A stretch of DNA of 64,000 nt from a virus (lineage: Duplodnaviria; Caudoviricetes): IMG/VR virus record IMGVR_UViG_3300010348_001841; one strand, 5' to 3'. This document shows, piece by piece, positions 6,603 to 28,721 of the stretch (within the stretch, counting starts at the first letter, position 1; every line of letters begins with the position of its first letter). The notes beneath the pieces are model-generated. The model made no database searches. It had not been told where the DNA came from and saw only the letters and a program-made list of their open reading frames with translations. The position numbers were made by a program, and so were the translations under genes.

Positions 6603-6611
6603 AATAAAAAG

Positions 6612-6678
6612 ATGGATCACGGGTTCGAACCGTGTTCAGCATTGTAAAGAGGCTATGTTACCAAATACACCAATCCGT
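6612..6678 (-). pseudogene. degenerate tRNA-like element (loop CTTTACA; TTA or TAC reading ambiguous)
   Basis: Good D arm and T arm CACGG-TTCGAAC-CCGTG; only about 4-bp acceptor; no CCA. Confidence 0.5.
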
Positions 6679-6679
6679 G

Positions 6680-6755
6680 TGGCGCCTGGTGCAGGATTCG
6701 AACCCGCGACGCAAGGTGTTAGGGACCCCCGCTCTAACCGCTGAGCTAACCAGGC
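6680..6755 (-). tRNA. amber-anticodon tRNA (CTA), putative suppressor
   Basis: 76-nt cloverleaf; acceptor GCCTGGT/ACCAGGC, G73, CCA; anticodon loop CCCTAAC (C33). Confidence 0.8.
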
Positions 6756-10392: not shown

Positions 10393-10890
10393 ATGATTGG
10401 ATTTATTTACGTTTGGAAAGATAAATTAAGAAACATGTATTATGTGGGATCTCATATCGGAACACCCGATGATGGATATATATCATCTTCTCGTTGGTTA
10501 AATTTTGAATATCAATATCGTCCTCAGGATTTTAGGCGCAGAATTATAAAAGAAGTCGATATAGAAAACTTAAAAATAGAAGAATATCAATTTATCTGTA
10601 TGATTAAACCACACGAATTTGGCAAGAAATACTATAACTTAAAAATTGGTGCACCGAAAGGTACAACACCTTGGAACAAAGGAACACAAGGTATTTTCTC
10701 CGAAGAGCATCGCAAGAAAATATCTCAAAGTAAGATAGGTCACGCGGCGTGGAATAAAGGAACACCAAATCCGTTAGGTGCCAAGAATGGCAGGAAGGGT
10801 GCTAAAAAACTTTCAGAAACTGCTAAGGGAAGAAAACGATTCTATAAAGAAGATGGTTCATGGACCTGGCAATATCCGGAAAACAAATAA
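10393..10890 (+). CDS. GIY-YIG homing endonuclease (Seg-like) with NUMOD repeats
   Basis: GFIYVW..YYVGSH..DDGYISSS; WNKG repeats; GATAAATA upstream. Confidence 0.8.
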   Translation: MIGFIYVWKDKLRNMYYVGSHIGTPDDGYISSSRWLNFEYQYRPQDFRRRIIKEVDIENLKIEEYQFICMIKPHEFGKKYYNLKIGAPKGTTPWNKGTQGIFSEEHRKKISQSKIGHAAWNKGTPNPLGAKNGRKGAKKLSETAKGRKRFYKEDGSWTWQYPENK

Positions 10891-10893
10891 GAA

Positions 10894-10909
10894 GGGGCCC
10901 GAAGGCCCC
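10894..10909. terminator. hairpin terminator ending tmRNA and Seg-like transcripts
   Basis: GGGGCC-CGAA-GGCCCC. Confidence 0.7.
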
Positions 10910-10910
10910 C

Positions 10911-11250
10911 TGATTATTGGGTAAGAAGGTAATCAACCCCCGGTGGTTTACGCGGCTAGCGCAACCTCACCATAGAATGCATCATTTGCATTTAGTTTGT
11001 TTTCGTGAGTTACGGTCATTGCCACCGTGTCGCGTCCCTCATCTCAGCAACCCAATCGAAACCTGGTCGGCCCCATCAGAAGTAGACATCCTGCGTTTTA
11101 GGGGTAATACAAGAATTGTGACTTCGACGTTTGCAACCGCCAAGGCATCAAATTGTATGCAGGTAGAACCATTCTTATCTACTTTTGGTGGAGCCGGCGG
11201 GAATCGAACCCGCGTCTTGAACCCATCAATTTAGTCCGAATTACGACAAT
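10911..11250 (-). ncRNA. ssrA: circularly permuted two-piece tmRNA; tag ANDAFYGEVALAA
   Basis: Acceptor piece (T arm, GGCTCCACCA, ends 11186) precedes coding piece starting GGGGCCGA at 11074; G3:U70; tag ORF 10989-10948. Confidence 0.9.
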
Positions 11251-11265
11251 AAAAACATTGTACGG

Positions 11266-11784
11266 TTATTTACCGCCCTTGTCAATAATGGGTGCATCCC
11301 TGCGAGGCATCTCTTCAAAACATATTGTTCCTATCTTTATATGGAACTTTAGTTTTTCGTATCCACGCTGAATGTACACATCAACATAACCATTTATCAC
11401 TTCTTCTCCGGGATTTAGAAGTTGGTCACCCACTCTGATACCAGCCTTATAGGCCGGATATTGTTCTGGCGCCCTATATACCGCATTTACCGGACCATAA
11501 TATAAAACACCTATTCCCCGATATGTCGAAGCTTTATCTTTACAGGGAATAATCTCTTCAGAGATCTCCGATGGCATTGTTAATCCAATTTCGGATTTTG
11601 GTACAGTTATGGTGTCACGAGATACCTTAGGGTCAGATAATAACTGTACCTCTACTGTATTTTCTTCTAAATTACTAACTGTTTCTCTTTTATGTAGAAC
11701 TGGTGGTAGAAATAAATAGAGAAACAGGAACAGATGAAGCAGAAAGCTTGCAACTATTCCTGTTAATTTTTCTTTGCGCGGCAT
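11266..11784 (-). CDS. membrane-anchored protein with PDZ-like domain
   Basis: N-terminal TM helix; YRGIGV and PAYKAGIRVGD. Confidence 0.6.
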   Translation of the reverse strand: MPRKEKLTGIVASFLLHLFLFLYLFLPPVLHKRETVSNLEENTVEVQLLSDPKVSRDTITVPKSEIGLTMPSEISEEIIPCKDKASTYRGIGVLYYGPVNAVYRAPEQYPAYKAGIRVGDQLLNPGEEVINGYVDVYIQRGYEKLKFHIKIGTICFEEMPRRDAPIIDKGGK

Positions 11785-15363: not shown

Positions 15364-15456
15364 AGAATTCATTTAACAAACCCTGCCGGTATTACCGGGG
15401 TGGGGTTCGATTGGAGTTGAACCAATTTTAACCGAAGTTATTGCTGTATGAATTCT
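15364..15456 (-). ncRNA. CAGCAA-stem RNA copy 1 (T arm plus acceptor-like stem)
   Basis: AGAATTCAT/ATGAATTCT stem, ACAGCAA, ATTGG-TTCAACT-CCAAT. Confidence 0.75.
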
Positions 15457-20048: not shown

Positions 20049-20112
20049 GGAATGCTTTTTTTGCGTTTTCAAATTACAAGTTTGATGCTTTTTATTTTGC
20101 TGAACGCATTCC
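20049..20112 (-). ncRNA. CAGCAA-stem RNA copy 2 (isolated Thr TGT anticodon stem-loop)
   Basis: GGAATGC/GCATTCC stem, TTCAGCAA, TCAAA-CTTGTAA-TTTGA. Confidence 0.75.
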
Positions 20113-22106: not shown

Positions 22107-22241
22107 ATAGAATCAAAATTCAGAGTAACCTTATAGGAACACCAATAACCGTAGAACGGCGCCTACATCTTCTTGCAGATGCTCTCAAGGAGCCACAAAC
22201 TCAAGATGTTTTTGTTAAACTAAAAGTATCTGAAATATAAC

Positions 22242-22357
22242 AGGTTCGCATTTATATCCTACCATTAGACGACAGTGGTGACCAACTCCACCGCTGGGAT
22301 TCGAACCCAGATCTTCTTTTTTACAGAAAGAATAATTTTGGCTGCTGAAACGAACCT
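22242..22357 (-). ncRNA. CAGCAA-stem RNA copy 3 (complete circularly permuted tRNA-Tyr-like domain)
   Basis: AGGTTCG/CGAACCT stem; order is anticodon arm (CTGTAAA), T arm, looped acceptor, D arm. Confidence 0.8.
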
Positions 22358-22374
22358 AAAGGTCAAATAAAATC

Positions 22375-22476
22375 GGGATGGGTGACAAAAGCCGGGACTC
22401 GAACCCTATCGTCACACCCCCAGCGGGCCGGCTCGCAGAAGTTTTGGTTGCGAATTTAGATTGCTGCAATCATCCC
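22375..22476 (-). ncRNA. CAGCAA-stem RNA copy 4
   Basis: GGGATG/CATCCC stem, TTGCAGCAA, GGG-TTCGAGT-CCC T loop. Confidence 0.7.
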
Positions 22477-22485
22477 TTAGAAAAT

Positions 22486-22923
22486 TTATGTCAGGATCAA
22501 CGAAGTTGTCCTACTTAACTCTTCAATCAATTCGTCGACCGAATAAAAAACTCCAGTTGCAAATTGATACATTACATCCCACCGATCCGGATCATCAAGT
22601 AAAATATATCCGGGTTTACCTGTTCCAATCACGTATCCAAGTTCAAGGTGAGCTGACTTACCTGCTGGAAGAGCCAGTACTGCTATCTCATTCCTATCAA
22701 GGTGATGTTTATCAAATTCATAAACATGTTTTGCAGCATAACCCTGCAAGCCCTGTTTATAGTTATTTCCCTTTGCAATCTCATATTTTTGCCAATAATC
22801 GTCTGCTTCGGGTCCTGCAGCATACCAGTCATCAAACACCTCATGGCCGGCTGCTCTTAACTTTGACGCAATGGTTCCAATTTGCGGATTACGCAAAGAA
22901 CCGATAAGATAAATTTTTGACAT
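22486..22923 (-). CDS. nucleoside 2-deoxyribosyltransferase-like protein
   Basis: KIYLIGSLRN, FDKHHLD, GKSAHLELGY; own TTGACA-type promoter at about 22941-22969. Confidence 0.65.
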   Translation of the reverse strand: MSKIYLIGSLRNPQIGTIASKLRAAGHEVFDDWYAAGPEADDYWQKYEIAKGNNYKQGLQGYAAKHVYEFDKHHLDRNEIAVLALPAGKSAHLELGYVIGTGKPGYILLDDPDRWDVMYQFATGVFYSVDELIEELSRTTSLILT

Positions 22924-22975
22924 CTTTTCTCCTTTTAAAGAGCATAGCACACGAAATGCCTGATGTCAAATTGTC

Positions 22976-23053
22976 TGGTACCCAAGGAGGGATTCGAACC
23001 CACACTGTACGGTTTCTAAGACCGGTGCCTCCTACCTATTGCGCTACTTGGGC
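22976..23053 (-). tRNA. tRNA-Leu(TAG), short variable region
   Basis: Loop CTTAGAA, CCA. Confidence 0.85.
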
Positions 23054-23129
23054 ATTATATTTTCGAAGTAGGTACCCGTCTGCCAACCCACTGTGGATCC
23101 AGCAGAACACCCACGTATACTTCAAATTA

Positions 23130-23204
23130 TGGCGGGCCATCAAGGATTCGAACCCTGACCGACAGTTTTGGAGACTGGTATGCTGCCAATTACACTAATG
23201 ACCC
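23130..23204 (-). tRNA. tRNA-Trp(CCA)
   Basis: Loop CTCCAAA, G73, CCA. Confidence 0.9.
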
Positions 23205-23279
23205 ATATAGTATTGGGCTTCCCACCCAAGTTGTCTGTTGCCTAGGGCATTATTCAGGTTTACAGATAATCTATCATTT

Positions 23280-23355
23280 TGGCTCCACGACTAGGATTCG
23301 AACCTAGCTCATTCGGTTAACAGCCGAGGGTACTCACCAAGAATACTATCGTGGA
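23280..23355 (-). tRNA. tRNA-Asn(GTT)
   Basis: Loop CTGTTAA, G73, CCA. Confidence 0.9.
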
Positions 23356-23362
23356 ATAATCT

Positions 23363-23974
23363 TTATAAAATATTCAAATCTCTCAAATCTTTATGCATAA
23401 GGACAGTCAATTGTTTCTCTTTAGGAAACTGTGACCATTTTGCACTATCTTTTTCGGTTTTATAACCTTTTATCTCTACATATTCATTTGTCTCTGGAAG
23501 ATAAAAATCTGGAGTATATCTTCTTATTTTATTCTCAAACTCATAAACAAATGATTCAGTATTTCTTTTCCAAAGTGTACCTAGTCTATCAAGGTAACGC
23601 ACATACGCCACTTCCCATGATCCGTGCAAATCTACACCATTGTAATCTATATGCATGCGCCTTGCCAACGATGTATGCCATTCATTATTGACAACCTTTT
23701 TGGCTATTGTGTCTTTTCTTTTTTGTTTTGTTTCTAGAGATTCTTTTTTATTCTTTATCTTGGCAGCATTTGACATTTTGCTTTTGGATTCAACTGTGGC
23801 TGTTTGACAGCGAATATCACCGGAAAGTCCAGTATTCCAGGCCCTCTGTCCTTTGCGATTTCCAGTTGCCCATTCGGATGGGTCTTTTCTTGTAGGATTT
23901 AGTTTACAGAAAACTTCGTGTGCCCTATGAGACTTTATACTTACGCACACCTTGTTACAATATTTGCAATGCAT
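23363..23974 (-). CDS. Zn-finger plus PD-(D/E)XK freestanding endonuclease
   Basis: CKYC..HEVFC; GSWE, YTPDFY..YVEIKG. Confidence 0.8.
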   Translation of the reverse strand: MHCKYCNKVCVSIKSHRAHEVFCKLNPTRKDPSEWATGNRKGQRAWNTGLSGDIRCQTATVESKSKMSNAAKIKNKKESLETKQKRKDTIAKKVVNNEWHTSLARRMHIDYNGVDLHGSWEVAYVRYLDRLGTLWKRNTESFVYEFENKIRRYTPDFYLPETNEYVEIKGYKTEKDSAKWSQFPKEKQLTVLMHKDLRDLNIL

Positions 23975-24195
23975 CTTCTATTTATCAAACTAAGTCCAGT
24001 CCATGCACCAAGCTCGGGTTTCGCGGAATAGAATATTTCGGAGTAGCAGCGGGGTAGTCCCAAATGACAATCCACATACTCCTGCTCATAACCAATGTGG
24101 CCACATTGGTACATGCATTTAGATTGATGCATATAGGAATCGAACCTAGTCCCACAGCCCTAGTCGAGCTTAGCCTCCAAGGAATACATCAAATT

Positions 24196-24271
24196 TGGTG
24201 TCCAGAGTAGGACTCAAACCTATAACCGCTCGCCTATCAAGCAAGTGCTCTATCAATTGAGCTATCCGAGC
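24196..24271 (-). tRNA. tRNA-Ile(GAT), divergent
   Basis: Loop TTGATAG; mismatched acceptor; CCA. Confidence 0.7.
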
Positions 24272-24272
24272 A

Positions 24273-24584
24273 TTATATCTTGCCCTTAAGGGCATTTACG
24301 GTCTCTTCTTCGGGAATATCGCTATAGCGCGGAATCTCCGGATCATATCGACCGTTTAACCATCTATAAATGGTACTTTGATAAAGCTGAGAATTCATAG
24401 CCTCTTTCTCAAGCTTAATATATGATGGCAAACTAAGGGTACACTGCACATCCATGCGTCTTTTACCCTTATTGGATTCAAATAAATGGAAATAAATCTG
24501 TCCCGGTATCTTCTCAAACTTAATATCGATTGAGAGAGATTTTACCAGACGCCAATCATCTTTCCAAAAATTGTACCAGGCCAT
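24273..24584 (-). CDS. hypothetical protein
   Basis: AGGA RBS, 103 aa. Confidence 0.6.
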   Translation of the reverse strand: MAWYNFWKDDWRLVKSLSIDIKFEKIPGQIYFHLFESNKGKRRMDVQCTLSLPSYIKLEKEAMNSQLYQSTIYRWLNGRYDPEIPRYSDIPEEETVNALKGKI

Positions 24585-24674
24585 AATATATCCTAAGTAG
24601 GAAATGGATGGGAATCACCAGCCCCACATCTACCGAAAGGTTGTTTTTGATCACTAAACTACCACTATACTTTC

Positions 24675-24749
24675 TGGAGCGGATAGCGGGAATCGAACCC
24701 GCGCCATCAGTTTGGAAGACTGTTATGCTACCACTAACACCACACCCGC
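24675..24749 (-). tRNA. tRNA-Gly(TCC)
   Basis: Loop CTTCCAA, U73, CCA. Confidence 0.9.
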
Positions 24750-24878
24750 ATAATTGCTGCCGGGTCATTTCTAACGCGATGCACCGACACCCGCGACTTA
24801 CGGGTGGGTGTACATGTACAAGGTCGGCCCACCTATCTTATGTTCTCACCTGGCACCTTTCGATGCCAGGATTTTTCT

Positions 24879-25907
24879 TTAGGCCGGCACGCCGACCCAA
24901 ATCATCAGGCCCATGCCCTTGGTCAACTTACGATTGATCGACGTGGATTGCACGTAGATTTCGTAATTGGCATGATTGCCCGGGGCAAGCTTAACATCGC
25001 CGGTGTGCGGAAGACCGAGCAGATCTCGCGCATTGAAGCCGCTGTAAACTGCACCAGTTGTCTTCTCACGGATGGCAATTTGCTTATAGCCTTGAACAGT
25101 CTCAGTCTTCTTCAGTTCGTAAAAAGCACAGCCCTTAACAAAGGTAACGCCTTGCGCTTCAACGAAATCACGAATCTGCGAACCATCCCATTGATCATCC
25201 ACTTCGTAAACATCAACCTGTTTGGAGATGTCAACAAGTTCAGACTTCACTTCCTTAAGTGTCACAGAACTCAGATCAGCATAGAACTTATCTGTGCTGT
25301 TGATGCCTGCTGCCTTTGCAGCATAGAAACCTCTGAATGCACTCTTAGTCAACGTAGTCGACTGAATCATTCCGCGCTCGCTCTGCTCCCATTCTTGGAT
25401 GTTGCCCTCTGGAATACCATAGCGAACAAGTTGTTGCTTATATCCTGCAGGAACACGAAACACAAACGTCCAACGATCGGTCATTTGCAGTTTCTTGATC
25501 AGTTTAGCGATATCATTACCGCTATACTTTCTGCTGGCGTTTTCGCCACCGTCTGTGGTAGTAAAGACCACAAAAGATACACCGGGATCATCGGCATCAG
25601 GAACGGCCTGCAGTTGTTCAACAAGTTCACCGACCGCATCAAAAAGTGGAGTACCGCGACCACGTGCGCTATAACTGGATTCGCCAATCGGCTTCAATGC
25701 CGAGACAGACGAGTTACTAACAACAGTGCGCACCTTATCGGTGTCACCGTATCCAAGTTCAACAACCGACACAATGGTATCGATGCCATGATTGGATGCT
25801 TCTTCTTTAATCGAAGAAATATTGTCATTGTAATCAACGGCAGCATGGCGTGCAATATGTGCCATAGAGCCCGAATGATCTCGTGCAAAACCGATGTAAT
25901 TCTTCAT
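24879..25907 (-). CDS. von Willebrand factor A (MIDAS) domain protein
   Basis: DHSGSM, GTPLFDAV, TTDGGENAS. Confidence 0.8.
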   Translation of the reverse strand: MKNYIGFARDHSGSMAHIARHAAVDYNDNISSIKEEASNHGIDTIVSVVELGYGDTDKVRTVVSNSSVSALKPIGESSYSARGRGTPLFDAVGELVEQLQAVPDADDPGVSFVVFTTTDGGENASRKYSGNDIAKLIKKLQMTDRWTFVFRVPAGYKQQLVRYGIPEGNIQEWEQSERGMIQSTTLTKSAFRGFYAAKAAGINSTDKFYADLSSVTLKEVKSELVDISKQVDVYEVDDQWDGSQIRDFVEAQGVTFVKGCAFYELKKTETVQGYKQIAIREKTTGAVYSGFNARDLLGLPHTGDVKLAPGNHANYEIYVQSTSINRKLTKGMGLMIWVGVPA

Positions 25908-25970
25908 GTATGCCTTTCTGTGTGGTTAGGTTGTCCGTATACTTTATAAGCATACCTATAACCTGTCAAA

Positions 25971-26090
25971 TGGTGCCGCCCCCGGGAATCGAACGCCGGT
26001 CCTACTCCTTGTCATGGATGGAATAGATTGCTGAACGTATCCTTATCAGGATCACCTTTTTAGTTGTGCTACCATTACACTAAGGCGACA
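25971..26090 (-). ncRNA. CAGCAA-stem RNA copy 5: tRNA with the motif hairpin inserted between D and anticodon arms
   Basis: TGTCGCC/GGCGGCA acceptor plus CCA, D arm, insert GATCCT-GATA-AGGATACGTTCAGCAA, loop ATGACAA, T loop. Confidence 0.75.
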
Positions 26091-27610: not shown

Positions 27611-27689
27611 TGGTCTGGGATGCAAGATTCGAACTTGCGACCTCTCACTTCCAAGGCGAGCCGTCTGACCTGACTGACAATAATCCCAG
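27611..27689 (-). tRNA. tRNA-Pro(TGG)
   Basis: Loop CTTGGAA, C1:G72, A73. Confidence 0.85.
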
Positions 27690-27695
27690 AATGTT

Positions 27696-27774
27696 TGGTC
27701 TCCGATGAGGGATTCGAACTCTCATTGTGTCACACCCCAAATGTGCTGCCATAACCTGGTTAGGCGAATCGGAG
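27696..27774 (-). tRNA. tRNA-Pro(TGG)
   Basis: Loop TTTGGGG, CCA. Confidence 0.85.
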
Positions 27775-27920: not shown

Positions 27921-27976
27921 AGAATACGCATTTGCTTTCATTTACCGTGAAATTTTATATTTGCAGTAGGTATTCT
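27921..27976 (-). ncRNA. CAGCAA-stem RNA copy 6 (CTGCAA variant, anticodon-like hairpin)
   Basis: AGAATAC/GTATTCT stem; TTTCA-CGGTAAA-TGAAA. Confidence 0.7.
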
Positions 27977-28634: not shown

Positions 28635-28721
28635 TGGTGGACCCTGATAGATTTGAACTATCGAAACCTGTGGTGCCGGATGTACATGCCCGGTGGGTTT
28701 GCCCGCTTCCCTAAGGGATCC
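28635..28721 (-). tRNA. Tyr-like tRNA with 8-nt anticodon loop
   Basis: Loop CATGTACA; paralog of 28543-28629; A73, CCA. Confidence 0.6.

What the first reader, a model, noticed from the sequence alone, without database searches (positions are those of the whole stretch)
22242..26090. Two RNAs that are circular permutations of the same tRNA-plus-handle topology
Seen: 22357-22242 reads handle 5' strand, anticodon arm (TTCTTT-CTGTAAA-AAAGAA, Tyr), T arm, acceptor closed by a loop (CGGTGG/CCACTG), D arm, handle 3' strand. 26090-25971 has normal tRNA order with a free acceptor and CCA, and the same handle, closed by a GATA loop, inserted between the D and anticodon arms. Both place the handle at the D-arm/anticodon-arm junction. 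Unlike typical YrlA, the anticodon arm is retained. Inference: an evolutionary intermediate between tRNA and Y-like RNA, or a precursor that is ligated and reopened like permuted tRNAs. The second RNA could be aminoacylated.
Basis: partly seen in the sequence, partly recalled or inferred. Interest (0 to 1): 0.82.

Follow-up and report, generated by a model that had tools for sequence, protein, structure and literature searches.

The report
Circularly permuted phage tRNA-like Y RNAs
Two conserved small RNAs in a giant phage's tRNA cluster are the same tRNA-shaped molecule wired in two different orders, and they are most likely partner RNAs ("Y RNAs") of a phage Ro60-like protein whose counterpart in an E. 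coli phage is reported, in a preprint, to counter a bacterial defence.

Summary
E1 (22364-22241, minus strand) has five covarying helices in 67 homologs. In order they are a terminal helix ("handle"), an anticodon-like arm, a T arm, a loop-closed acceptor and a D arm. E2 (26089-25971) has normal tRNA order with an encoded ACCA. The same handle, as a hairpin followed by CAGCAA, sits between its D arm and anticodon-like arm.

Profile blocks built from E1 align to all 15 tested E2 homologs in swapped order, so the two are homologous circular permutations.

They are not decoding tRNAs. The anticodon-like loop keeps the canonical frame, but its triplet takes 19 values in E1 and differs between E2 homologs.

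A 99%-identical contig of the same phage and all four complete relatives encode a DUF2828 protein. Its predicted fold matches Ro60. Sister RNAs with the same handle sit directly upstream of that gene. E1- or E2-type RNAs also lie beside DUF2828 genes in Felixounavirus Bas63, a mycobacteriophage and Citrobacter phage Ci1.

Best reading (0.7): Y-RNA-like partners of a phage Ro60-like protein, a new variant of the YrlA kind. No protein-RNA binding was tested.

New here: a leader/acceptor-loop pseudoknot in E1, and a variant with CCA plus spacer between the acceptor strands.

First readers of overlapping windows of this genome had already noted the family.

The parts
22361..22364 (-). E1 leader GACC, candidate pseudoknot partner of the acceptor-closing loop
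   Evidence: GACC lies 3-4 nt 5' of the handle in 67 of 76 homologs, although no search pattern required it. Variants co-change with the loop: UACC with GGUA (3 of 3) and GACU with AGUC (1).
22351..22358 (-). E1 handle, 5' strand (U-AGGUUCG)
   Evidence: Pairs with 22241-22248. 6 of 8 pairs show double changes in 67 sequences, and 97.2% of cells pair.
22342..22347 (-). E1 CAGCAG, the family motif CNGCAR placed 10 nt after the handle start
   Evidence: C-A-G-C-A is invariant in alignment A5. The same motif and spacing occur in E2, E0, E3, E4 and E5, and in the Bas63 and Kingsolomon RNAs.
22314..22332 (-). E1 anticodon-like arm (5-6 bp stem, 7-nt loop CUGUAAA)
   Evidence: 5 of 5 pairs covary. 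Loop positions: 32 is C in 53/67, 33 is U in 64/67, 37 is A in 66/67, 38 is A in 62/67. The middle triplet takes 19 values.
22294..22310 (-). E1 T arm (CUGGG UUCGAAU CCCAG)
   Evidence: 3 of 5 pairs covary and 99.7% of cells pair. The loop sequence was fixed by my search pattern.
22273..22293 (-). E1 acceptor stem CGGUGG/CCACUG closed by loop AGUUGGUCA (GGUC at 22283-22280)
   Evidence: 6 of 6 pairs covary. The loop core GGUC is conserved and complementary to the leader.
22256..22270 (-). E1 D arm (GUCU AAUGGUA GGAU), preceded by U8 at 22272
   Evidence: 2 of 4 pairs covary. U8 is present in 66/67, A14 in 67/67, G19 in 67/67. Positions 15 and 48 co-vary: A-U 43, G-G 14, G-C 3.
22241..22248 (-). 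E1 handle, 3' strand (CGAACCU-G), followed by a UU(A/U)U tail
   Evidence: The CUGUU tail is conserved in A5.
26083..26089 (-). E2 acceptor, 5' strand (GUCGCCU); U at 26090 could pair with A73
   Evidence: 5 of 7 acceptor pairs covary in A3.
26066..26080 (-). E2 D arm (GUGU AAUGGUA GCAC)
   Evidence: 2 of 4 pairs covary. The D loop is identical to E1's.
26038..26053 (-). E2 handle as a hairpin: G-AUCCU GAUA AGGAU-A
   Evidence: Compensatory variants appear in independently found homologs. The sixth pair reads A:U, G:C, U:A or C:G, and G.A in most sequences.
26028..26033 (-). E2 CAGCAA motif, 10 nt after the start of AGGAU
26002..26026 (-). E2 second hairpin (anticodon-like arm): CUAUUCC / 11-nt loop / GGAGUAG
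   Evidence: Homologs have an 8-bp bulged stem and a 7-9-nt loop ending in AA. After excising the insert in silico, ARAGORN calls a tRNA in 15 of 16 homologs, with at least 10 different nominal anticodons.
25982..25999 (-). E2 T arm with a bulged C (CCGG-c-G UUCGAUU C-CCGG)
   Evidence: 3 of 4 counted pairs covary.
25971..25981 (-). E2 acceptor 3' strand GGGCGGC, discriminator A, encoded CCA
   Evidence: 30 of 32 ordinary tRNAs in the window also encode CCA.
25941..25969 (-). Promoter-like site TTGACA-17-TAAAGT, starting one base after E2's CCA
   Evidence: TTGACA is conserved in relatives.
22372..22478 (-). E0: another family member directly upstream of E1 (handle GGGAUG/CAUCCC, GCAGCAA, T-like hairpin)
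   Evidence: The tail of a preceding handle (AUCCUGUUAU) lies upstream of E1 in many relatives. Its fold has not been tested by covariation.
20049..20112 (-). E3: minimal family member (handle GGAAUGC/GCAUUCC, UUCAGCAA, one 5-bp hairpin with a 7-nt loop)
15364..15456 (-). E4: family member with a T arm and a closed acceptor-like stem but no D arm
   Evidence: fold z-score -3.7.
27921..27976 (-). E5: minimal family member (handle AGAAUAC/GUAUUCU, CUGCAA, one hairpin)

Best explanation
E1 and E2 are two members of a phage-encoded family of Y-RNA-like tRNA mimics.

All members share one module: a short helix (the handle), then two to five bases, then the single-stranded motif CAGCAA, facing an A-rich strand. 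I infer that this module is the docking site for the phage's Ro60-like protein (Pfam DUF2828 plus DUF7788/vWA).

The rest of each RNA is tRNA-derived. In E1 and E2 it is a complete tRNA body that keeps the nucleotides needed for the L-shape. It can therefore engage proteins that recognise tRNA.

- E1 has the YrlA arrangement. The ends lie in the handle and the acceptor is closed by a loop. That loop also pairs with four bases just 5' of the handle.
- E2 is the same molecule re-cut. The handle is closed by a loop, and the acceptor is open with an encoded CCA. RNase P and 3' trimming should therefore process it like the neighbouring tRNAs.

Neither RNA decodes.

Shown computationally here:
- the folds
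- the permutation
- the Ro60-like fold of the protein
- the recurring gene-RNA linkage

Inferred:
- the protein-RNA binding
- the partner recruited by the tRNA-like body
- a role in counter-defence or RNA surveillance during infection
For: Folds: covariation supports every helix of E1, and the acceptor, D and T arms and handle hairpin of E2.

Permutation: E1 block A (handle 5' strand through acceptor 3' strand) aligns to E2 positions about 50-114, starting at profile position 1-8. Block B (acceptor 5' strand through the A-rich linker) aligns to positions about 5-46. This holds for 15 of 15 E2 sequences. The 32 ordinary tRNAs match only from profile position 26 onward in block A, or up to position 25 in block B.

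tRNA core: U8, A14 and G19 are conserved, and positions 15 and 48 co-vary.

Not decoding: 19 triplets occur in E1, and at least 10 nominal anticodons in E2.

Protein:
- DUF2828 is present in 4 of 4 complete relatives.
- It is also on a Logan contig 99.1-99.8% identical to the window, about 14 kb before the window start and on the same strand.
- For the AF2 model (pLDDT 71), the 12 best Foldseek matches in PDB are all Ro60/TROVE, aligned over their full length, with E down to 2e-7.
- Mycobacteriophage homologs are annotated 'Ro-like RNA binding protein'.

Linkage:
- Two family RNAs end 10 nt before the DUF2828 start codon on that contig. The same arrangement is seen in G001, G004 and G005.
- An E1-type RNA lies 1 kb downstream of the gene in Felixounavirus AYO145A and Bas63 (66.6 bits).
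- One lies about 100 nt downstream in mycobacteriophage Kingsolomon (50.2 bits).
- An E2-type RNA lies 0.6 kb downstream in Citrobacter phage Ci1 (59.7 bits).

Literature:
- Bas63 gp130 (bas63_0130) is Ro60-like and counters the ppl defence. The authors guessed that some neighbouring 'tRNAs' are Y RNAs (PMC11482910).
- Thermus phage phiLo Ro60 binds two adjacent Y-like RNAs (PMC12135203).
- YrlA is a permuted tRNA mimic (PMC4201824; bioRxiv 10.1101/312249).
Against: - No binding experiment or expression data exist for these RNAs.
- E1 and E2 lie about 36-40 kb from the DUF2828 gene in this phage. The link rests on the shared motif and on adjacency in other phages.
- The Ro60-like assignment rests on a moderate-confidence model (TM about 0.5).
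- The YrlA motif GNCGAA(N)G is absent, and Rfam's YrlA model does not match E1 or E2.
- Listeria and Vibrio phage DUF2828 loci gave no match to the E1 model.
- G005 has the protein but no strong E1 ortholog.
Confidence: 0.7

Rival explanations
1. They are unusual pre-tRNAs that mature into decoding tRNAs. On this reading E1 is a permuted tRNA gene that is circularised, by the phage's own RtcB ligase for instance, and then reopened at the acceptor. E2 is a tRNA with a new kind of intron at position 26/27.
For: - With the handle removed in silico, both give cloverleaves that ARAGORN accepts.
- E2 has an encoded CCA, as do 30 of 32 neighbouring tRNAs.
- Homolog L034 has CCA plus a spacer between the acceptor strands.
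- All four complete relatives encode RtcB.
Against: - The anticodon triplet is unconstrained among close homologs.
- E2 loops of 8-11 nt occur.
- The closing loop of E1 is conserved and pairs with the leader, which is not expected of a discarded spacer.
- The handle motif is shared with members that lack tRNA arms.
- The window already has ordinary tRNAs for Tyr and Val.
- No bulge-helix-bulge splice motif was seen by eye; no formal scan was run.
Confidence: 0.05
2. They are free-standing tRNA decoys or sponges that act without the Ro60-like protein. For example, they could soak up host anticodon nucleases, tRNA-modifying enzymes or other tRNA-targeting defences. On this reading the handle only stabilises the RNA.
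For: - The tRNA core and the anticodon-loop frame are preserved.
- The RNAs sit in a 41-tRNA array of a phage that clearly invests in its tRNA supply.
- Variation in the anticodon triplet could reflect tracking of different targets.
Against: - The handle plus CAGCAA motif is conserved from mycobacteriophages to E. coli phages. It is repeatedly found next to DUF2828 genes.
- That conservation is hard to explain by stability alone.
- Minimal members E3 and E5 have no tRNA body to act as a decoy.
Confidence: 0.15
3. They are cis-acting parts of the long tRNA transcript, such as processing or spacing signals, or they are decaying tRNA duplicates with no function of their own.
For: They lie between tRNAs on the same strand. 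Tandem tRNA duplicates with 6-nt spacers do occur here, for example tRNA-Pro at 27611-27774.
Against: Compensatory changes appear in every helix, across more than 60 divergent contigs. The RNAs are conserved in phages of unrelated hosts. Decay would not preserve this.
Confidence: 0.05

Closest known systems
YrlA (Rfam RF02553), the tRNA-like Y RNA bound by bacterial Ro60/Rsr (Chen et al. 2014, PMC4201824; structure in bioRxiv 10.1101/312249)
   Same: - E1 has the same order: terminal stem, T arm, loop-closed acceptor, D arm.
- It has the same conserved elbow and core nucleotides.
- Sister RNAs lie next to a Ro60-type gene.
- The phage also encodes RtcB, just as rsr-yrlA neighbours rtcBA in Salmonella.
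   Different: - The protein is DUF2828, which Pfam's TROVE model does not recognise.
- The motif is CAGCAA rather than GNCGAA(N)G.
- The Rfam model does not match E1 or E2.
- E1 carries a full anticodon-like arm and a leader-loop pseudoknot.
- E2 has the un-permuted order with a free CCA end.
- There are several copies per genome, with different inner parts.
Mycobacterium smegmatis YrlA, which RNase P opens and which then receives CCA (described in PMC4201824 and bioRxiv 10.1101/312249)
   Same: It is a Y RNA whose acceptor is open and ends in CCA, as E2's would be.
   Different: There the open form arises by cleaving a closed RNA into two pieces. E2 is encoded in one piece, with the handle closed.
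Thermus phage phiLo Ro60 with Yrl1 and Yrl2 (PMC12135203), and Bas63 gp130 (PhageMaP preprint, PMC11482910)
   Same: - These are phage Ro60-type proteins with adjacent small RNAs.
- phiLo Ro60 is the best structural match to the DUF2828 model.
- bas63_0130 is a DUF2828 ortholog, and an E1-type RNA lies 1 kb downstream of it.
   Different: - The phiLo RNAs are described as stem-bulge-stem with a CGAA motif, not as tRNA-like.
- For Bas63, the partner RNAs were only guessed at.
Circularly permuted tRNA genes of Cyanidioschyzon merolae and some archaea
   Same: The 3' half is encoded before the 5' half. The acceptor is initially closed, and the ends pair in a helix next to the anticodon region.
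   Different: Those genes mature into decoding tRNAs with fixed anticodons, through a splicing endonuclease and a ligase. Here the anticodon is not conserved, and the helix carries a conserved motif.
T4 stable RNAs species 1 and 2 (rnaC, rnaD) in the T4 tRNA cluster
   Same: They are small stable RNAs of unknown role encoded among phage tRNAs, and rnaD ends in CCA.
   Different: Neither the E1 nor the E2 model matches them.

Membership tests
YrlA (Rfam RF02553) | Reaches the family's covariance-model gathering score (69 bits) | tested here: not met
   - No YrlA match at E<=10 in the two window stretches.
- E1 orthologs in G001, G004 and G006 are not matched at E<=1.
- Only the DUF2828-adjacent RNAs of G004 and G006 match, at model positions 23-87 with 40-42 bits.
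YrlA (Rfam RF02553) | Order: terminal stem, T arm, loop-closed acceptor-like stem, D arm, terminal stem | tested here: met
   Met for E1, with covariation. Not met for E2, which has tRNA order.
YrlA (Rfam RF02553) | GNCGAA(N0-1)G motif near the 5' end, the proposed Rsr contact | tested here: not met
   The motif is absent from E1 and E2. The conserved motif is CNGCAR, 10 nt after the handle start.
YrlA (Rfam RF02553) | Encoded within about 4 kb of a Ro60 ortholog, on the same strand | tested here: inconclusive
   - E1 and E2 are on the same strand as the DUF2828 gene but about 36-40 kb away.
- Sister RNAs end 10 nt before that gene.
- E1- or E2-type RNAs lie 0.1-1 kb from it in Kingsolomon, Ci1, AYO145A and Bas63.
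- The protein is not a Pfam TROVE match.
YrlA (Rfam RF02553) | tRNA tertiary-core nucleotides (U8, A14, G18/G19, T-loop, 15-48 pair) | tested here: met
   The T loop was fixed by my search pattern, so it is not independent evidence.
Y RNA in the functional sense | Bound by a Ro60-type protein | not testable with these tools
   Only gene linkage and the shared motif are available.
tRNA (Rfam RF00005) | Reaches the gathering score (29 bits) or is called by ARAGORN | tested here: not met
   E2 scores 23.8 bits with a 55-nt insertion, and E1 gives no match. ARAGORN calls neither native sequence.
tRNA (decoding) | Anticodon conserved among orthologs | tested here: not met
   19 triplets in 67 E1 sequences. 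Val, Met, Arg, Gly, Ile, Asp and Asn are the nominal calls among E2 homologs.
Permuted tRNA genes (C. merolae type) | The 3' half lies upstream of the 5' half, and the product is a mature tRNA of fixed identity | tested here: not met
   The order is met for E1. Fixed identity is not met. Maturation cannot be tested here.
Ro60 / TROVE proteins (for the partner protein) | HEAT-repeat ring plus vWA domain fold | tested here: met
   The top 12 Foldseek matches in PDB are all Ro60. Pfam finds DUF2828 plus DUF7788, and a weak VWA_2 match. The Pfam TROVE model itself does not match.

The most novel reading that the evidence does not exclude
E2 is a Y RNA that is also a working acceptor. It would be processed by RNase P, carry CCA, and be charged or bound by an aminoacyl-tRNA synthetase or EF-Tu. 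It would thereby tether the Ro60-like protein to the translation or tRNA-charging machinery.

A related possibility is that E1 and E2 forms interconvert in the cell, through the phage RtcB ligase and RNase P.

In either case the pair would be a living record of how Y RNAs arose from tandem tRNAs.
Probability: 0.12. Interest if true: 0.88.

Novelty: new variant of a known kind. Interest (0 to 1): 0.7.

Why it matters
Y RNAs are thought to descend from tRNAs, perhaps from tandem tRNA transcripts. Intermediates have been lacking. This finding supplies three in one family:
- a closed, permuted form that still has its anticodon-like arm
- a homolog that keeps CCA and a spacer between the acceptor strands
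- the same molecule in native tRNA order with a free CCA end

It also gives concrete candidate RNA partners for a widespread phage protein family. DUF2828 homologs matched 710 phage records. One member of that family, in a tractable E. coli phage, is reported to counter a defence system. The question of what these Ro60-like proteins bind and do therefore becomes directly testable.

It also flags probable annotation errors. These RNAs are currently labelled as pseudo-tRNAs, or are covered by small hypothetical ORFs.

Tried and rejected
- The window's own genome is not held.
- The Pfam TROVE model found nothing in three relatives.
- Rfam at E<=10 gave only chance-level matches (isrK, mascRNA, snoZ118) and a sub-threshold tRNA match for E2.
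- Single-sequence folding energies are unremarkable, with z-scores of -0.5 to -1.4. The case rests on covariation.
- An exact 52-nt E1 pattern found nothing. An acceptor/D-arm pattern for E2 found only 4 contigs.
- blastn against named phages found only shared tRNAs.
- T4 rnaC and rnaD are not matched by either model. A short similarity between rnaD and E3 (UAAGGAAU-GCGUU) was not pursued.
- The Listeria and Vibrio phage DUF2828 loci gave no E1-model match.
- TTGACC upstream of E1 was considered as a -35 box and rejected. The conserved bases are GACC rather than TTG, no -10 box follows, and GACC co-varies with the loop.
- No RNA holder is listed among public runs. Only sludge DNA metagenomes hold the stretch.
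- No CCA-adding enzyme gene is present in the relatives.
- The review PMC10870794 is not held.
- Complex prediction was not used, because it takes no RNA.

Full report
**Context.** The window comes from a large phage found in activated-sludge metagenomes. Positions 1650-28814 of the minus strand hold 41 ARAGORN calls: 40 tRNA genes and a permuted tmRNA. Homing endonucleases and small ORFs are interspersed among them. The two elements of the finding lie in gaps of this array.

**The observation.**
- E1 runs: handle 5' strand, CAGCAG, a 5-6-bp hairpin with loop CUGUAAA, T arm, a 6-bp acceptor closed by AGUUGGUCA, U8-C9, D arm, an A-rich linker, handle 3' strand.
- E2 runs: a 7-bp acceptor, D arm with the same loop AAUGGUA, an A-rich linker, hairpin AUCCU-GAUA-AGGAU, ACGUU-CAGCAA, a second hairpin, a T arm with one bulged C, then the acceptor 3' strand, A and CCA.
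- Rfam's tRNA model scores E2 at 23.8 bits, below its threshold, with a 55-nt insertion. It does not see E1.

**Homologs and covariation.**
- A neighbouring gene and DNA patterns recovered relatives from IMG/VR.
- For E1, 67 sequences from separate contigs align cleanly. On the structure I wrote, 93.3% of cells pair, against 39-49% when partners are slid. 23 of 34 pairs have double changes, and no shuffle reaches the observed values. All five helices covary.
- For E2, 20 sequences give 90.2% pairing against 37-48% slid, with covariation in the acceptor, D and T arms.
- The E2 hairpin was fixed by the pattern that found that set. I therefore searched loci that had been fetched on an E1 pattern with an E2 covariance model. 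The 16 strong hits (14 inspected) show AACCU/AGGUU, ACUCU/AGAGU and AGCCU/AGGUU. A sixth pair reads A:U, G:C, U:A or C:G.
- Both RNAs are therefore real, conserved and structured.

**Circular permutation.**
- I split the E1 alignment at the acceptor loop into two profile HMMs.
- In 15 of 15 E2 sequences, the block 'handle 5' strand to acceptor 3' strand' aligns to the 3' two-thirds of E2, starting at the hairpin's 3' strand (profile position 1-8).
- The block 'acceptor 5' strand to A-rich linker' aligns to the 5' third.
- The window's ordinary tRNAs match only the arm portions.
- The shared parts thus include the handle strand, CAGCAA and the linkers, not just generic tRNA arms. The two RNAs are homologous and differ by where the chain is cut.

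**tRNA likeness, and why they do not decode.**
- Joining E1's two halves without the handle gives a 73-nt cloverleaf that ARAGORN accepts. The native sequence is not called.
- Excising about 40 nt from E2 does the same in 15 of 16 homologs.
- In E1, U8, A14 and G19 are nearly invariant. Positions 15 and 48 co-vary: A-U 43, G-G 14, G-C 3.
- The hairpin before the T arm has the canonical anticodon-loop frame: C32 in 53/67, U33 in 64/67, A37 in 66/67, A38 in 62/67. Its middle triplet takes 19 values.
- E2 homologs carry nominal anticodons for seven or more amino acids.
- By position alone this hairpin could be called YrlA's 'V' arm, with the handle standing in for the anticodon stem. Its form, and the 4-nt linker ending at position 48, fit an anticodon arm better. 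I leave this point open.

**New structural details.**
- Four bases (GACC) lie 3-4 nt 5' of the E1 handle. They are complementary to GGUC in the acceptor-closing loop.
- No search pattern required the leader, yet 67 of 76 sequences have GACC with GGUC. All three GGUA loops have UACC, the one AGUC loop has GACU, and two are G.U variants. This suggests a pseudoknot that ties the acceptor tip to the outer end of the handle.
- One homolog (L034) has, in place of the loop, the acceptor 3' strand, then A-CCA, a 6-nt spacer, and the acceptor 5' strand. That is what a junction between two tandem tRNAs looks like. It fits the dimeric-tRNA origin proposed for YrlA (bioRxiv 10.1101/312249).

**The family.**
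- The motif is RGRNU, 5 nt, CNGCAR, with a covarying partner strand. It marks at least six minus-strand elements in the window: E5, E2, E0, E1, E3 and E4.
- Their inner parts range from a single hairpin to a full tRNA body.
- The handle module is therefore the common denominator.

**The partner protein.**
- Pfam TROVE is absent from relatives.
I confirmed that all four complete relatives (360-385 kb) and one partial relative encode it.
- A Logan contig 99.1-99.8% identical to the window carries it about 14 kb before the window start, on the same strand.
- The AF2 model (pLDDT 71) has Ro60/TROVE structures as its 12 best PDB matches, headed by Thermus phage phiLo Ro60.
- tblastn finds homologs in 710 phage records. 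These include mycobacteriophage genes annotated 'Ro-like RNA binding protein'.

**Gene-RNA linkage.**
- The E1 model finds two family RNAs ending 10 nt before the DUF2828 start codon on the near-identical contig. It finds equivalents in G001, G004 and G005.
- It also finds E1-type RNAs 1 kb downstream of the gene in Felixounavirus AYO145A and Bas63 (66.6 bits), and about 100 nt downstream in mycobacteriophage Kingsolomon (50.2 bits). All carry CAGCAA at the same distance from the handle start.
- The E2 model finds an E2-type RNA 0.6 kb downstream of the gene in Citrobacter phage Ci1, where it is annotated as a pseudo-tRNA.
- bas63_0130 is the 'gp130' of the PhageMaP preprint. There it is described as Ro60-like and as a counter to the ppl defence, and the authors guess that some adjacent tRNA genes are Y RNAs (PMC11482910).
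- All complete relatives also encode RtcB, echoing the rsr-yrlA-rtcBA neighbourhood of Salmonella.

**Comparison with what is known.**
- YrlA is the closest family. E1 shares its topology and tRNA core.
- E1 and E2 nevertheless fail Rfam's YrlA model, lack its GNCGAA motif, and pair with a protein that TROVE models miss.
- I found no description of a Y-type RNA in native tRNA order with an encoded CCA and an internal handle. I also found none of the leader-loop pseudoknot, or of a multi-copy modular family of this kind.
- I therefore rate this a new variant of a known kind.

**Limits.** Nothing here shows expression, RNA ends, binding or charging. No RNA run holds the stretch.

Noticed in passing
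window 6609-6755 (-) and 28635-28721 (-): ARAGORN calls adjacent tRNAs with anticodons UUA and CUA, which read the stop codons UAA and UAG. It also calls a tRNA with a four-base anticodon, UGUA. This hints at stop-codon suppression or recoding.
   Followed up: no
window 10888-11299 (-): A circularly permuted (two-piece) tmRNA gene with tag ANDAFYGEVALAA. The same phage therefore carries another permuted tRNA mimic.
   Followed up: no
window 22372-22478, 20049-20112, 15364-15456, 27921-27976 (all -): Four further members of the handle/CAGCAA family (E0, E3, E4, E5) with reduced or different inner parts. E0 sits in tandem directly upstream of E1, in this phage and in many relatives.
   Followed up: partly
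window 25941-25969 (-): A strong sigma-70-like promoter begins one base after E2's CCA and drives the conserved 342-aa gene of unknown function (phrog_26613). E2 and this gene are linked in 5 of 7 relatives.
   Followed up: partly
L174 2752-2895 (MZ501086.1 82770-82913): In Bas63, the E1-type RNA is not annotated. Two small hypothetical ORFs on the opposite strand (bas63_0137, bas63_0138) cover it and are probably spurious.
   Followed up: partly
L169 4509-4632 (OR515478.1 77202-77325): The E2-type RNA of Citrobacter phage Ci1 is annotated 'tRNA-Pseudo-AAC'. Its 3' end reads AUCA rather than ACCA.
   Followed up: partly
L125 3605-3703, L094 898-996, L066 8036-8134 and others: A conserved tRNA-like class of about 99 nt in related phages. 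It has an anticodon-type loop UUUAUAU and a long extra arm containing GCAACAGAUAAUUGG. It is not present in the window.
   Followed up: no
L155, L161, L165 (about 50 nt around the pattern match): RNAs with the same anticodon-like arm, T arm and D arm as E1, but a different terminal helix (GAACGA/UCGUUC) and no CAGCAA. This may be a sister family with another partner.
   Followed up: no
L151 2054-2172 (T4 rnaD): T4 species 2 RNA contains UAAGGAAUUGCGUU, close to E3's UAAGGAAUGCGUU, and ends in CCA. No model match was found, so this may be chance.
   Followed up: partly
L168 7600-8409: On the near-identical contig, an Endonuclease_NS (non-specific nuclease) gene directly follows the DUF2828 gene.
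   Followed up: no
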